64,000 nt of DNA, from positions 149,695 to 213,694 of the forward strand of contig JACKLD010000012.1 in NCBI GenBank assembly GCA_024236095.1, in the 5' to 3' direction. Position 1 is the first letter of the stretch, and every line of letters begins with the position of its first letter. The stretch is from Pseudomonadaceae bacterium. Lineage in GTDB: Bacteria > Pseudomonadota > Alphaproteobacteria > UBA2136 > UBA6156. This document shows, piece after piece, positions 33,001 through 36,000 of the stretch. Position numbers: made by a program.

Positions 33001-36000
33001 ACGACGGTACGGCGCTGCGTGCCCTCCCCGAAGCCACCTTCAATTGGGAAAAACCTTATATCTCCGAAGGCGGCTTCCACACCATCACCCCCCGCGTGAT
33101 GGGCGCCCTCAGCTTCCGTGGCAACAACCCCACCGGCATCCCGAACGAAGACTCGGTGGCCTACGAGCTGGACTACGCCAACCTCTTCGAACCCAGCCGC
33201 TTTGCCGGATTGGATAGGGTCGAAACCGGCCCCCGCCTCGTCTACGGGGTCGACAACCACTGGGGCGGCGCCAACCAAACCCGCTGGCAATTGTTCCTCG
33301 GCCAAAGCCTGCGCAAGTATGACGACAACAACCTGCCGCAATCCGGCGGCGCCGCCACCCCGGTGTCGGATTTTGTCGGCTTCGCCCAAGGCAGCCCGGC
33401 CGACTGGCTCACCTTCAACAGCCGCTTCCGGCTCGACAACGCCACATTCGACATCCGCCGCATGGACAACAGCCTGCAACTGGGCCACTACGGTGACGAA
33501 AACGCTTGGCTGCGCGGCACGTATTCCTTCCTCGACAACGATACCGAGAGCCTCACCACCGAAGGCAACCTGCCGCTCAACGAGCGCCTGCGCTTTACCG
33601 CCGCCTCACGGCACGATCTCCGCAACAACAACACCCTGCAAGCCGAGGGCGGCCTCATCTACCGCCGCGATTGCTACGAAATCGGCTTCAAAGTCCGCCG
33701 CCGCGGCTTCGTCAACGGCGACATCCGCCCCAGCACCGACTATCTCCTCAACATCCAGCTCCTCACCCTCGGCAGCGAAACCGACTAACGCCCCCCCCTT
33801 CGTCATTGCGAGCCGCAGGCGAAGCAATCTCCCCACAACACCTCCAAAACCAACCCAACCGGAAAGCCCCATCCAAGCCTCCCAAGTCATCCCGTTGACG
33901 AACGGGATCCACGAACAACCTATAAGCCCACGGCCAAAGGCCGTCCCATCACGGGCGCCTGCCCGTCATCCCCGCGCAGGCGGGGACCCACGTTACAAAT
34001 CCACGCCGAAGGCGTTCCATCCTTCGAACATACCAACATCGAACACTCGAACATCGACACTACCAACCCCTGCCAACCCATGCTAAAGTGCGCCCCATGA
34101 AACACCTCACCCTTGCCTTCCTTTTGGCCCTCACCGCCACCTTTGCCCATGCCGCGACAGACCGCGTCGTCGCCGTGGTGAATGACCAAATCATCACCCT
34201 CTCCAACGTGGCCGCCCGCACCCACCTGCTGGAACGCCAGATGGGTCTTGCCAACCCCACGCCGCCACAACAGGAGGCGCTGGGCAAACGCACCCTCGCC
34301 AAGCTCATCGATGAAGAACTCATCCGCCAATATGGCTCTCATATGGGCATCACCGTCACCGATGCCGAACTGAAACAGGCCATCACCACCATCAGCGACA
34401 AAGACCCAAACTTCGCCCCCCTCACCAAAGGGCTTGAAAACGCTGCGGGCGAACAACTTGCAGCGGAAATCCTGTGGGACAAAATCACCGCCCAGCTCAT
34501 CCGTCCTTCGGTGAACATCTCCAACCTTGAAGTCGACCAGATCATTGAAGACATGACCAAGTCCCGCCACGTGGTCGAGCGGGAAATCTCGCAAATCTTC
34601 CTTGCCGCCACCGATGAGAAAGAGGCCGCCAAACGCATGGAAACCATCAAGGCCGAGCTGGCCGGCGGCGCCGACTTCGCCACCCTCGCCCGCACCTACT
34701 CGGAAGACACCTCCGCCGCCCAGGGCGGCCATATGGGATGGTTTGCCGGCGGCGAACTGAACCCACAACTTGAAGACGCGCTCGACAAAATGCAGCCGGG
34801 CCAAACCAGCAACATCATCCGCACACCGCTGGGCTTGCATATCATCAAGCTGGACAACCTGCGCACCACCAAACCGGTATCCACCGAGCCCGTCACCGAG
34901 ATGAACCTTATCCTCGTCTCCCGCCCGCTGACTGAAGGCGAAAGTGCCGACGACGCCGCCAAGGCCTTCGGCAAAAACGTCATCGACGCCTACGCCAAGC
35001 CCGATGCCGTGCAGGCCGCCGTGGCCGACCCCGCGTTCAAGGTCACTTACAGCGGCACCAGCAACCTTGGCTTCATCAACCCCGCCAACCTGCAAAGCGC
35101 CATGCAGCAGGCGGCGGCAGGCCTCAAACCGGGCCGCTGGAGTGCCCCCTTCACCACCACCGACAGCGTCGGTGCCCTCTACCTGCTGGGCACCCGCCAA
35201 GCCATCCCGCCGCAACTCACCCAATACCGAGAGAGGGTGCGCGCCCACCTCACCCAAAACCGCATGGAGCTAGAAACCCGCCGCCTCCAGCGCGAACTCC
35301 GCCAACGCGCCTTCGTCGATATCCGCTGGTAGACTCCCCCCGCCACCTAATGCGTCATTCCCGCAAGCCGAAGCTTAAAACCGTTTAGCCATCCTCGTCA
35401 TTGCGAGCCGCAGGCGCGGCAATCTCCCAAAGACACCTCCAAAGCCAACCAAACAGGAAATCCCCACCCCGGCCTCCCAAGTCATCCCGTTGAAGAACGG
35501 GATCCACGACCAACCTATAAGCCCACGGCCAAAGGCGTTCCATCTTTCGAACATACCAACATCGACCATTCGAACATCGGCATACCTACCAAAGCCTCCT
35601 CACCCATGCTAACGTTGAGGCCATGCGCATCCTCCCCGCCATCCTCGCAGCCCTTGTCACCGCCCTGCTCGCCGTCTGGCTCATCTCCCCCACATCCCCC
35701 GCGCCCACAGCAACCGAATCTGCCTTCGACCACATCCTCCGCACGGGCACCATCCGCTGCGGTTACTATGTCTTCCCCCCCATGCTGATGTTTAATGAAA
35801 CCACCCGCAAACCCTACGGCCTCGCGGTGGACATGATGAACCGCATCGCCGCCAAAACCTCCCTCAAGGTGGAATGGGTGGAAGAAATCAACTTCGGCAA
35901 CTGGATGAGCGGCCTCATCACCAAACGGTATGATGCCGTCTGCACGCCCATGTGGCCCAATGCCGCCATGACGCGGGAGTCCACCTTCGGCAAGCCGATG

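What the first reader, a model, noticed from the sequence alone, without database searches (positions are those of the whole stretch)
33790..35600. About 250-bp composite modular repeats flank surA, one with a nested element
Copy A (33790-34085) and copy B (35340-35600) share ~85% identity. Copy A additionally carries a ~70-bp ATCCCC-N8-GGGGAT unit nested inside, which shows that the repeats are built from independently mobile modules (gcgtcattcc half-sites, ATCCCGTT-gacg-AACGGGAT, TCGAACA tandems). Direct repeats bracketing surA could mediate its deletion or duplication. pdxA, which normally lies between surA and ksgA, is absent here and an unrelated solute-binding protein gene sits in its place.
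Basis: seen in the sequence. Interest (0 to 1): 0.5.

Follow-up and report, generated by a model that had tools for sequence, protein, structure and literature searches.

The report
Hairpin-repeat mosaics flanking surA
The two ~250-bp repeats on either side of surA are real, but they are an ordinary local example of a known kind of bacterial "junk" DNA: mosaics of small CGTC-headed hairpin repeats, the same kind as Neisseria dRS3/NTS elements, whose partner single-strand nucleases are encoded three times in the same window.

Summary
The lptD-surA spacer (copy A, 33789-34096) and the surA-SBP spacer (copy B, 35333-35622) align at 89% over 151 nt and 84% over 93 nt. Copy A has 72 extra nt.

The repeats are mosaics of CGTC-tagged palindromic repeats (Di Nocera 2013), also called NTS or Ssn-related motifs (Chenal 2025).
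- The unit "nested" in A fits the published SRM pattern. It recurs in-frame inside rsmA, and it brackets a GIY-YIG (Ssn-like) nuclease gene at 53.7-54.2 kb.
- Three such nuclease cassettes sit in the nuo operon.
- The ATCCCGTT hairpin has the same architecture (8-bp stem, 4-nt loop, CCA tail). It is 26/26 nt identical in genomes from several phyla.
- The TCGAACA octamer array recurs inside nuoL.

The closest relatives have bare spacers of 18-71 nt. More distant relatives carry different hairpin units in the same spacers.

The last ~35 nt of A are orthologous to sequence upstream of surA in relatives. B is therefore best read as a local copy of spacer A, not as a transposed 250-bp element.

The surA-SBP-rsmA order is ancestral to this clade. 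The missing pdxA is therefore unrelated to the repeats.

Verdict: a new member of a known kind, of modest interest.

The parts
33789..34096 (+). Copy A: the whole lptD-surA spacer (308 nt), a mosaic of hairpin modules all in gene orientation
35333..35622 (+). Copy B: the whole surA-SBP spacer (290 nt). It is a paralogue of A preceded by a B-only 5' stretch
33801..33833 (+). Module M1 in A: CGTC-ATTGCGAGCCGCAGGCGAAGCAAT-CTCC, a CGTC-headed irregular hairpin that starts 12 nt after the lptD stop
   Evidence: The same type brackets a GIY-YIG gene in the lptD-surA spacer of relative L043
35396..35428 (+). Module M1 in B. The 3' arm is changed from AA to CG
33885..33914 (+). Module M3 in A: AGTC-ATCCCGTT-GACG-AACGGGAT-CCACGA (8-bp stem, 4-nt loop, CCA tail)
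35480..35509 (+). Module M3 in B, with loop GAAG. This version is 26/26 nt identical to copies in many phyla
33942..34013 (+). The 72-nt segment present only in A. It is bounded by the imperfect direct repeat CCACGSC(C)RAAGGC (33928-33941 / 34001-34013)
   Evidence: sequence
33964..34022 (+). Bipartite unit: SRM hairpin CGTCATCCCCGCGCAGGCGGGGACCCAC (33964-33991), then linker GTTACAAATCC, then mini-hairpin ACGCC-GAA-GGCGT, then TCCATCC
   Evidence: SRM regex hit. Eight instances share this architecture and seven show a mini-hairpin, each with a different stem. Alignments
34023..34067 (+). TCGAACAY octamer tandem array in A
35546..35579 (+). TCGAACAY octamer tandem array in B
34060..34096 (+). 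3' end of A (CTACCAACCCCTGCCAACCCATGCTAAAG...). It is orthologous to the sequence just upstream of surA in relatives L040 and L041, which lack the mosaic
35586..35615 (+). 3' end of B, a paralogue of the surA-upstream segment (80% identity to A)
35353..35375 (+). B-only half-site CGTCATTCCCGC-AAGCCGAAGC: head plus 5' arm of a dRS3/NTS-type hairpin with no matching 3' arm. It is positionally equivalent to an expanded-loop hairpin in the surA-SBP spacer of L042
34097..35332 (+). surA (411 aa, signal peptide MKHLTLAFLLALTATFAHA)
35623..36474 (+). SBP_bac_3 solute-binding protein gene. Its stop overlaps the rsmA start (ATGA)
36834..36911 (+). In-frame insertion of about 26 codons in rsmA/ksgA (gene 36471-37319). 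It is encoded by the same bipartite unit (SRM hairpin at 36867-36894)
53720..54151 (.). SRM-ssn-SRM cassette 2: a GIY-YIG gene at 53779-54066 (- strand) bracketed by inverted hairpins of the same type as the unit in copy A
51013..51376 (.). SRM-ssn-SRM cassette 1: a GIY-YIG gene at 51053-51337 (- strand) with Y6, Y17 and E64
56399..56775 (.). SRM-ssn-SRM cassette 3: a GIY-YIG gene at 56433-56723 (- strand)
50008..50062 (-). Third copy of the mini-hairpin plus TCGAACAY x4 module, in-frame within the N-terminal region of the nuoL ORF

Best explanation
**What it is.** The two repeats are paralogous copies of an intergenic mosaic. The mosaic is built from CGTC-headed palindromic repeats, the superfamily that includes Neisseria dRS3/NTS, Rickettsia RPE-6 and the 'Ssn-related motifs'.

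**Module structure.** Each hairpin module has four parts: an unpaired NGTC head, an 8-bp stem starting with AT, a 4-nt loop and a CCA tail. In this lineage it is followed by a short linker, a GC mini-hairpin and TYCCAT.
- Copy A = M1 hairpin + CA-rich spacer + ATCCCGTT module + ATCCCCGC module + TCGAACAY octamers + old surA-upstream sequence.
- Copy B = a half-site + the same series with only one of the two tandem modules.

**History (inferred).** These modules accumulated in spacers of the lptD-surA-SBP-rsmA operon that were originally short. Spacer A, or most of it, was then copied into the surA-SBP spacer by local duplication or ectopic gene conversion. One module was later gained in A or lost in B by recombination between module ends.

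**How it works (by analogy with Neisseria, not shown here).** On single-stranded DNA the hairpins are binding and cleavage sites for small GIY-YIG Ssn nucleases. Three of these are encoded in this window, one with exactly the hairpin type found in copy A. Hairpin arrays on both sides of a gene would therefore cut incoming or exposed single strands and lower recombination at surA. As part of the operon transcript the hairpins may also affect mRNA stability. The elements most likely persist as selfish or near-neutral DNA.
For: **Shown**
- A/B homology.
- Five discrete hairpins in A.
- The nested hairpin matches the published SRM search pattern. There are 11 such hits in the window against 0.46 expected. 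Two of them are exact matches to the Neisseria NTS consensus.
- The nested hairpin and M3 meet the CGTC-1 architecture of Di Nocera 2013 (PMC3733652): 8-bp stem beginning AT, 4-nt loop, CCA tail.
- Three single-domain GIY-YIG ORFs of 94-96 aa (PF01541, E 1e-13 to 2e-17) are each bracketed by inverted SRMs. Ssn1 carries Y6, Y17 and E64, the residues mutated in N. meningitidis SsnA (PMC11893778).
- Cassette 2 has the same hairpin plus the CCACGTTACA tail as the unit in copy A and in rsmA.
- Modules occur independently.
- The closest relative has bare spacers of 71 and 18 nt. More distant relatives carry different hairpin units in the same two spacers. One relative (L043) carries a complete M1-type hairpin-GIY-YIG-hairpin cassette 16 nt after the lptD stop.
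- The 3' end of A is orthologous to relatives' surA-upstream sequence.

**From the literature.** Ssn nucleases cut ssDNA next to their hairpins, and NTS-gene-NTS DNA transforms less well (PMC11893778).
Against: - M1 and M3 do not fit the published SRM pattern.
- M3's head is AGTC rather than CGTC/TGTC/CCTC.
- No cognate nuclease for M1 or M3 was found in these 64 kb. Only 1 of 37 M3 loci elsewhere has an adjacent Ssn-like gene.
- Assignment of the three GIY-YIG proteins to cd10448 could not be tested.
- No activity, transformation competence or transcript data exist for this uncultured organism.
- The direction (A copied to B) and mechanism of the duplication are inferred from short alignments of 26-41 nt. 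L041's SBP-upstream sequence also has a weak CCATGTAAC resemblance.
- The source genome beyond the window was not available, so genome-wide copy numbers of the composite are unknown.
Confidence: 0.75

Rival explanations
1. The ~250-bp composite is itself a non-autonomous mobile element (MITE-like). On this view it inserted independently upstream of surA and upstream of the SBP gene, and a second element later inserted into copy A.
For: - Two copies at about 87% identity fill spacers that are short in the closest relative.
- The extra 72 nt in A are flanked by a 13-14 nt direct repeat that could be read as a target duplication.
- The Logan contig breaks inside both copies.
Against: - No terminal inverted repeats or target duplications lie at the composite's ends.
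- M1, M3 and the TCGAACA 20-mer occur only in A and B within 64 kb. The octamer array alone recurs in nuoL.
- The 20-mer has no hit in JGI metagenomes, and only the 26-nt hairpin matches in the genome-collection loci fetched.
- The composite's 3' end is orthologous to surA-upstream DNA in relatives without repeats.
- The 'target duplication' is imperfect and coincides with the conserved end of two homologous tandem modules.
Confidence: 0.08
2. The repeats are a duplicated functional leader. Under this reading a shared promoter, 5'-UTR or structured regulatory RNA co-regulates surA and the SBP gene.
For: - The similarity runs to 7 nt before both start codons and is in gene orientation.
- Folding is somewhat better than for shuffles: z -2.8 for A and -2.0 for B.
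- REP and BIME hairpins are known to modulate mRNA stability within operons (PMC3733652).
Against: - There is no Rfam match, even at E<=1.
- There is no sigma-70-like promoter and no + strand terminator.
- The closest relative has spacers of only 71 and 18 nt. Other relatives carry different hairpins there.
- The structured parts are exactly the dispersed hairpin modules found in unrelated contexts, including inside coding regions.
Confidence: 0.1
3. The similarity is chance, low-complexity sequence or an assembly artefact.
For: - The region is C/A-rich (42% C in A).
- The source is a metagenome-assembled genome.
Against: - Blastn E-values are 5e-53 and 4e-22.
- None of the motif searches had any hit in shuffled sequence.
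- The copies differ by about 11% and by indels, and each joins unique flanks.
- An independent Logan assembly reproduces the inner junctions.
Confidence: 0.01

Closest known systems
Neisseria dRS3 / NTS repeats and the intergenic mosaics (NIMEs) they form, with the SsnA GIY-YIG ssDNA nuclease (Parkhill 2000; Chenal et al. 2025, PMC11893778)
   Same: - The hairpin design is the same: CGTC head, AT-initiated 8-bp stem, 4-nt loop, CCA/CYRG tail.
- Two copies in the window match the NTS consensus exactly.
- The hairpins cluster in mosaics that bracket a cell-envelope gene.
- Small GIY-YIG genes bracketed by inverted hairpins lie in the same genome.
   Different: - The host is an uncultured bacterium, labelled Pseudomonadaceae, whose nearest relatives are labelled Alphaproteobacteria.
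- The hairpins in A and B have other stems (ATCCCCGC, ATCCCGTT, ATTGCGAG), and two of the three fall outside the published SRM pattern.
- There is a lineage-specific linker plus mini-hairpin extension.
- All units in A and B are head-to-tail.
- Nuclease activity and any role in transformation are untested.
CGTC-tagged REP superfamily, family CGTC-1 (Di Nocera et al. 2013, PMC3733652)
   Same: - Stem, loop and tail dimensions are met by the nested hairpin and by M3.
- The superfamily predominates in Alphaproteobacteria and includes Micavibrio.
- It occurs between unidirectional genes and occasionally inside genes.
   Different: - That paper reports mostly head-to-head dimers and few clusters. 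Here the units form same-orientation arrays.
- M3's head is AGTC.
- M1 has an irregular stem that I could not assign to CGTC-1 to CGTC-4, because the figure with the consensus sequences is not held.
Rickettsia palindromic elements (RPE; Ogata et al. 2000). RPE-6 is classed as CGTC-1
   Same: - The same unit that sits in copy A is inserted in-frame in a housekeeping gene (rsmA), adding about 26 residues in a loop.
- A further module is in-frame in nuoL.
   Different: - The elements are much shorter than most RPEs.
- The host genome is GC-rich (60%).
E. coli REP/BIME mosaics with RAYT transposases
   Same: - Both are composite intergenic mosaics of small oriented palindromes plus other motifs, sited between co-transcribed genes.
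- Both have an associated small nuclease gene flanked by its own repeats.
   Different: - The head is GTAG and the enzyme is an IS200/IS605-type HUH tyrosine transposase in E. coli. Here the head is CGTC and the enzyme is a GIY-YIG nuclease.
- There is no sequence relationship.

Membership tests
CGTC-1 REP (Di Nocera 2013) | Unpaired terminal CGTC (variants TGTC, CCTC) at one end | tested here: inconclusive
   The nested unit and M1 have CGTC. M3 has AGTC in both copies, and NGTC (C, T or G before GTC) in other genomes.
CGTC-1 REP (Di Nocera 2013) | 8-bp stem beginning AT, 4-nt loop, short unpaired tail fitting CCA | tested here: met
   - Nested unit: ATCCCCGC/GCAG/GCGGGGAC + CCA (one mismatch).
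- M3: ATCCCGTT/GACG or GAAG/AACGGGAT + CCA (no mismatch).
- M1 does not fit; its stem is irregular.
CGTC-1 REP (Di Nocera 2013) | Multi-copy dispersed family in the genome | tested here: inconclusive
   - There are 11 canonical hairpins in 64 kb, four of the ATCCCCGC type.
- M1 and M3 occur only in A and B within the window.
- The rest of the genome was not available.
NTS / Ssn-related motif (Chenal 2025) | Fits HGTCWYN(0-2)YYVSBRHN(0-5)WNVSBRGN(0-2)RNCYNB | tested here: met
   Met by the nested unit at 33964-33991 and by 10 other sites, against 0.46 expected. It is not met by M1 or M3, so those two are filed as SRM-like only.
NTS / Ssn-related motif (Chenal 2025) | Same genome encodes single-domain GIY-YIG (cd10448) proteins whose genes are flanked by the motif | tested here: met
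   Three ORFs of 94-96 aa hit PF01541 and are each bracketed by inverted motifs. Cassette 2 has the hairpin type of copy A. The cd10448 assignment itself cannot be tested with these tools.
NTS / Ssn-related motif (Chenal 2025) | Strand-specific ssDNA cleavage next to the hairpin by the cognate Ssn | not testable with these tools
   Requires purified protein and oligonucleotides.
Neisseria-type intergenic mosaic element (NIME) | Arrays in which dRS3-type hairpins are interleaved with members of other dispersed repeat families | tested here: inconclusive
   Hairpins are interleaved with non-palindromic segments. Of these segments only the TCGAACAY array is shown to recur elsewhere. The CA-rich spacer is found only in A and B.
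MITE | Terminal inverted repeats and target-site duplication at the ends of the ~250-bp unit | tested here: not met
   No inverted repeat pairs the ends of A or B. The 3' end is ancestral surA-upstream sequence.
RPE-like protein-coding palindromic insertion | Repeat lies in-frame inside an otherwise intact conserved gene and adds residues absent from homologues | tested here: met
   In rsmA, query residues 122-147 have no counterpart in solved RsmA structures. The ORF is intact. The insertion is encoded by the hairpin unit.

The most novel reading that the evidence does not exclude
The hairpin-GIY-YIG-hairpin cassettes would be active mobile elements that seed solo hairpins. The mosaics would then grow module by module through Ssn-dependent cutting and re-joining of single-stranded DNA.
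- On this reading the 72-nt extra module in copy A, with its 13-nt flanking duplication, is a captured insertion event.
- The M1 hairpin 12 nt after the lptD stop is the solo remnant of a cassette like the one still present at that spot in relative L043.
- The ATCCCGTT hairpin is 26/26 nt identical from Alphaproteobacteria to TGA-recoded Gracilibacteria and lies outside the published SRM pattern. It would mark a distinct, strongly constrained Ssn specificity class.
Probability: 0.15. Interest if true: 0.65.

Novelty: new member of a known kind. Interest (0 to 1): 0.33.

Why it matters
The finding mainly shows that the dRS3/NTS-type hairpin system described in Neisseria, together with its partner GIY-YIG nucleases, also operates in an uncultured free-living lineage. 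There it builds Neisseria-like mosaics around a cell-envelope gene and inserts in-frame into housekeeping genes (rsmA, probably nuoL).

The window is a compact natural test bed for the open question of how CGTC/SRM repeats spread. It holds three nuclease cassettes, solo hairpins, half-sites, expanded-loop variants and a two-versus-one tandem module polymorphism, all within 64 kb.

For surA itself nothing unusual is implied.

Tried and rejected
- **Rfam.** At gathering threshold on the whole window, and at E<=1 on 33700-35700, nothing relevant was found.
- **Promoter and terminator scan.** No sigma-70-like site and no + strand terminator. I had noticed TTGACG-N20-TATAAG across the M3 hairpin, but the spacer is too long.
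- **Exact-protein look-ups to fetch the source contig.** Only a 1.5-kb Logan contig was returned for SurA, and nothing for the SBP or for the GTG-start SurA. The source genome is also not in the genome collection.
- **Collection scans.** The metagenome scan for the composite-specific 20-mer TTCGAACATACCAACATCGA gave 0 hits. The viral-contig scan for the M3 hairpin gave 0 hits.
- **Ssn-like ORFs next to M3.** Only 1 of the 37 fetched loci (L011) has one adjacent, so a cognate nuclease for M3 remains unproven.
- **NCBIfam on the three GIY-YIG proteins.** Only sub-threshold hits to group I intron endonuclease were found.
- **An idea considered and dropped.** I considered that the SBP gene recently replaced pdxA and brought copy B with it. 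I dropped this because relatives share the surA-SBP-rsmA order without the repeats.
- **Checks not run.** I did not run a formal covariation test on the mini-hairpin (only seven informative instances, and they are hard to align). I did not scan the whole window for pdxA.
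Full report
**1.

The 308-nt lptD-surA spacer (copy A, 33789-34096) and the 290-nt surA-SBP spacer (copy B, 35333-35622) are clearly homologous.
- Blastn of A against the rest of the window gives 151 nt at 89.4% (E 5e-53) and 93 nt at 83.9% (E 4e-22). The repeat finder and MAFFT agree.
- The similarity starts about 10 nt after the upstream stop codon. It ends 7 nt before the ATG of surA (34097) and of the SBP gene (35623).
- A has 72 nt that B lacks. B has about 55 nt at its 5' end that A lacks.
The 3' arm of the nested palindrome in A is GGGGAC. 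The loop of the ATCCCGTT hairpin is GACG in A and GAAG in B. The 'gcgtcattcc' half-site is in B only.
- Pfam gives the gene order lptF-lptG-lptD-surA-SBP_bac_3-rsmA, with no pdxA between surA and rsmA.
- An independent Logan assembly reproduces 34031-35502 exactly and breaks off inside both repeats.

**2. Anatomy**

Folding A gives five discrete hairpins separated by C/A-rich unstructured stretches. From 5' to 3' the parts are:
- **M1** (33801-33833): CGTC-ATTGCGAGCCGCAGGCGAAGCAAT-CTCC.
- **A CA-rich spacer.**
- **M3** (33885-33914): AGTC-ATCCCGTT-GACG-AACGGGAT-CCACGA. It is followed by a linker and the mini-hairpin ACGGCC-AAA-GGCCGT.
- **The A-only segment.** It contains ACGGGC-GCCT-GCCCGT overlapping the head of CGTC-ATCCCCGC-GCAG-GCGGGGAC-CCAC. 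Then come the linker GTTACAAATCC, the mini-hairpin ACGCC-GAA-GGCGT and TCCATCC.
- **A TCGAACAY octamer array** (34023-34067).
- **A final ~35 nt** ending before the ATG.

M3 with its linker and mini-hairpin has the same architecture as the ATCCCCGC unit with its linker and mini-hairpin:
- M3 module: GTCATCCC..GGGATCCACG-linker-CCACGGCCAAAGGCGTTCCATC
- ATCCCCGC module: GTCATCCC..GGGACCCACG-linker-CCACGCCGAAGGCGTTCCATC

A therefore carries two tandem modules of one design and B carries one. The 72-nt difference is bounded by the module-end repeat CCACGSC(C)RAAGGC (33928-33941 and 34001-34013). 'Nested insertion' is thus one reading. Loss of one module in B by recombination between the module ends is an equally good one.

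**3. What the hairpins are**

They belong to a described superfamily.
- Di Nocera et al. 2013 (PMC3733652) defined CGTC-tagged REPs. These have an unpaired CGTC head, stems of 8-9 bp that start with AT, loops of 4-5 nt and a CCA tail. They are most common in Alphaproteobacteria, including Micavibrio. CGTC-1 equals Neisseria dRS3 and Rickettsia RPE-6. No dedicated transposase is known.
- Chenal et al. 2025 (PMC11893778) showed that the oriented 28-nt form (NTS, CGTCATTCCCGCGMAVGCGGGAATCYRG) and its relatives are bound as single-stranded DNA. The relatives are the Ssn-related motifs (SRM), defined by a degenerate search pattern. They are cut just upstream of the hairpin by small single-domain GIY-YIG nucleases (Ssn, cd10448).
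- The genes for these nucleases are typically bracketed by the motif. NTS-gene-NTS DNA transforms N. meningitidis less efficiently.

I applied these definitions to the window.
- The published SRM pattern hits 11 sites, against 0.46 in simulated sequence. One of the hits is the nested hairpin at 33964-33991.
- Two sites (52038 +, 52105 -) match the Neisseria NTS consensus exactly.
- A structural scan shows that the nested hairpin and M3 both meet the CGTC-1 dimensions.
- M1 and M3 do not fit the SRM pattern. I file them as SRM-like, not as members.

**4. The partner nucleases are in the window**

Three ORFs of 94-96 aa on the - strand hit Pfam GIY-YIG (E 2e-17, 9e-16, 1e-13). They lie at 51053-51337, 53779-54066 and 56433-56723.
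- Each is bracketed by inverted SRM hairpins with heads outward: 51013/51376, 53720/54151 and 56399/56775.
- They sit in spacers of the nuo operon.
- Ssn1 has Y6, Y17 and E64, the positions mutated in N. meningitidis SsnA.
- NCBI annotates Ssn1 as 'GIY-YIG nuclease family protein' (MCP5404819.1).
- Cassette 2 is bracketed by exactly the hairpin type of copy A, including the lineage-specific CCACGTTACA tail.

**5. The modules occur independently**

- **The ATCCCCGC bipartite unit.** It recurs at 36867 (inside rsmA), at 53720 and at 54151. It also occurs in the surA-SBP spacer of relative L041 and in the lptD-surA spacer and the rsmA of L042. Seven of the eight instances show a 3-6 bp mini-hairpin 10-14 nt after CCACG, and the stems differ from copy to copy. 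The stem-loop-stem sequences are ACGCC/GGCGT, GTGGCG/CGCCAC, AGCGC/GCGCT, ATCGC/GCGAT and CGC/GCG. The structure rather than the sequence is kept (seen directly, no formal covariation test).
- **The hairpin core.** It usually has an inverted partner 20-40 nt away, and the tail varies.
- **The mini-hairpin plus TCGAACAY x4 module.** It recurs in-frame in the N-terminal region of the nuoL ORF. The alignment to solved NuoL is offset by 20 residues.
- **The M3 hairpin.** It was found in 37 loci of the genome collection, from Micavibrio, Hyphomicrobiaceae, Nisaea, Devosiaceae, Thalassotalea, Aquimarina, Babeliales, Paceibacterota, Saccharibacteria and Gracilibacteria. Only the ~26-nt hairpin is shared with the window. 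In the Gracilibacteria locus, M3 copies flank an Ssn-like gene that is intact only if TGA is read as glycine.
- **M1-type hairpins.** In relative L043 (SurA 51% identical) they bracket an Ssn-like gene in the lptD-surA spacer. The left hairpin lies 16 nt after the lptD stop. In the window M1 lies 12 nt after it. M1 may therefore be a solo remnant of such a cassette (inference).

**6. Relatives and history**

SurA is 100% identical to MCP5404800.1, from an NCBI MAG labelled 'Pseudomonadaceae bacterium' with a contig of 505,967 bp. The nearest homologues carry Alphaproteobacteria labels.

| Relative | SurA identity | Arrangement at the two spacers |
|---|---|---|
| L039/L040 | 69% | lptD-71 nt-surA-18 nt-SBP-SBP-rsmA; no hairpins |
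| L041 | 64% | 109-nt lptD-surA spacer without a canonical unit; 181-nt surA-downstream spacer with one bipartite unit |
| L042 | 55% | a bipartite unit upstream of surA; an expanded-loop hairpin downstream |

Three conclusions follow.
- The two spacers are recurrent sinks for these elements. The large mosaic is specific to the window's lineage.
- surA-SBP_bac_3-rsmA, with the 4-nt SBP/rsmA overlap, is ancestral to the clade. The 'missing pdxA' therefore has nothing to do with the repeats.
- The last ~35 nt of A (CTACCAACCCCTGCCAACCCATGCTAAAG...) align with the sequence just upstream of surA in L040 and L041, which lack the mosaic. B shares this segment. B's own 5' half-site is positionally equivalent to the hairpin that follows surA in L042.

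The simplest history is that B consists of an old hairpin remnant plus a copy of spacer A, made by local duplication or ectopic conversion. It is not a second transposition of a defined 250-bp element. This rests on short alignments and is an inference.

**7. Function**

No promoter, + strand terminator or Rfam family is detectable. Relatives do without the mosaic, so a specific regulatory leader is unlikely.

The best-supported mechanism is the one shown for Neisseria. On single-stranded DNA the hairpins are oriented recognition sites for Ssn nucleases. Arrays on both sides of a gene shorten the usable homology of incoming strands. Whether this organism is competent, and whether Ssn1-3 cut these particular hairpins, is unknown.

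All units in A and B have the orientation of the operon. They are therefore transcribed, and they may act as mRNA hairpins, as proposed for REPs in general.

Recombination between A and B could in principle delete surA. However, the longest uninterrupted identity is 26 nt. No junction data could be obtained.

**8. Verdict**

This is a real feature that is largely explained by known biology. It is a new member of the CGTC-REP / NTS-SRM kind, arranged as a Neisseria-like intergenic mosaic.

What goes beyond the literature I read is minor but concrete:
- two hairpin types (M1, M3) outside the published SRM pattern;
- the bipartite hairpin plus mini-hairpin unit;
- in-frame copies in rsmA and nuoL;
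- three nuclease cassettes inside one nuo operon;
- the exact conservation of the M3 hairpin across phyla.

**Limits**
- Only 64 kb of the source genome could be examined.
- The figure with the CGTC family consensus sequences is not held.
- Membership of the nucleases in cd10448 could not be tested.

Noticed in passing
window 51013-51376, 53720-54151, 56399-56775: Three cassettes of a 94-96 aa GIY-YIG (Ssn-like) gene, each bracketed by inverted CGTC/SRM hairpins, are inserted in spacers of the nuo operon (between nuoK/nuoJ, nuoH/nuoG, and nuoG/nuoF-side). The operon also carries GNAT (45747-46220), CutA1 (47844-48173) and two unannotated ORFs (50150-50668, 56812-57186) between nuo genes.
   Followed up: partly
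window 36834-36911 (rsmA); L042:7454; L039:3085-3900: rsmA/ksgA carries an in-frame insertion of about 26 codons encoded by the hairpin unit ([13 protein letters not shown]). Relative L042 has a hairpin at the same place, read in another frame (GVMPAQAGIHVT). The closest relative, L039, keeps a shorter remnant (GRHPAPSG). This is either one old insertion with frame changes or a hot spot. L042 also has a hairpin inside its fabH-like gene (11435).
   Followed up: partly
window 50008-50062 (- strand): A mini-hairpin GGCGC-GAA-GCGCC followed by TCGAACAY x4 lies in-frame in the N-terminal region of the nuoL ORF (it encodes GAKRRSNIRTLEHSNIRDT). Alignment to solved NuoL is offset by 20 residues. This is consistent with an insertion, but a mis-called start is not excluded.
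   Followed up: partly
window 46240-46330 (- strand): The 3' end of the nuoM ORF reads ...AMDMWRAPVEAMDMWRAPVEAMVATEHVTPTVIPAQAGTQ... This is a 10-codon tandem duplication followed by a hairpin (46267-46294) that is translated as part of the ORF tail.
   Followed up: no
window 56305-56426: Three half-sites (CATCATTCCTGC, CGTCATTCCTGC, CGTCATTCCCGC: head plus 5' arm only) are spaced exactly 30 nt apart and lead into the full hairpin at 56399. Similar half-sites directly upstream of full hairpins occur in metagenome loci L053, L065 and L076. They may be footprints of the propagation or cleavage-repair process.
   Followed up: no
window 25153-25235 and 26822-26880; L042:6040-6115: These are hairpins of the same family whose 8-bp arms are intact but separated by 32-55 nt instead of a 4-nt loop. 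Examples are ATTCCAGC...GCTGGAAC and ATTCCAAG...CTTGGAAC. Something has been inserted into, or has expanded, the loop.
   Followed up: no
L002-L038 (genome collection), e.g. L011:5260-5760: The 26-nt hairpin GTCATCCCGTTGAAGAACGGGATCCA is identical in Alphaproteobacteria, Gammaproteobacteria, Bacteroidota, Babeliales and several CPR phyla. It is often paired tail-to-tail with a different hairpin (GGATTCCGGCCTTCGCCGGAATGAC). In a Gracilibacteria contig it flanks an Ssn-like gene that needs TGA=Gly. It does not fit the published SRM pattern.
   Followed up: partly
L043:7540-8005 (also L044, L045): In a relative (SurA 51% identical) the lptD-surA spacer holds a complete cassette: GCGTCATTGCGAGG...GCAATC, a GIY-YIG gene, and the inverted copy of the hairpin. 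It sits at the position where the window has the solo M1 hairpin.
   Followed up: partly
window 52038-52105: A tail-to-tail dimer of two hairpins, each matching the Neisseria NTS consensus with no mismatch, lies between nuoJ and nuoI. At 52115-52147 there is a further 5'-half copy.
   Followed up: partly
window 20882-25099: A 1405-aa ORF is built from about ten tandem repeats of ~276-303 nt (60-83% identical to one another). Each contains VTINVLANDTD-like motifs typical of cadherin-like or VCBS-type adhesin repeats. It is followed immediately by an expanded-loop hairpin at 25153.
   Followed up: no
whole window: GC skew is negative throughout: -0.08 to -0.27, with C 34.9% against G 25.1% on the + strand. 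It is strongest where genes are on the + strand. The spacers A and B are extreme (C 39-42%, G 17-19%).
   Followed up: no
source record (MCP5404800.1, MCP5404819.1): The MAG is labelled 'Pseudomonadaceae bacterium'. The nearest SurA homologues that carry a label (43-55% identity) are labelled Alphaproteobacteria or Proteobacteria, and the repeat families are those typical of Alphaproteobacteria. The taxonomic label looks doubtful.
   Followed up: no
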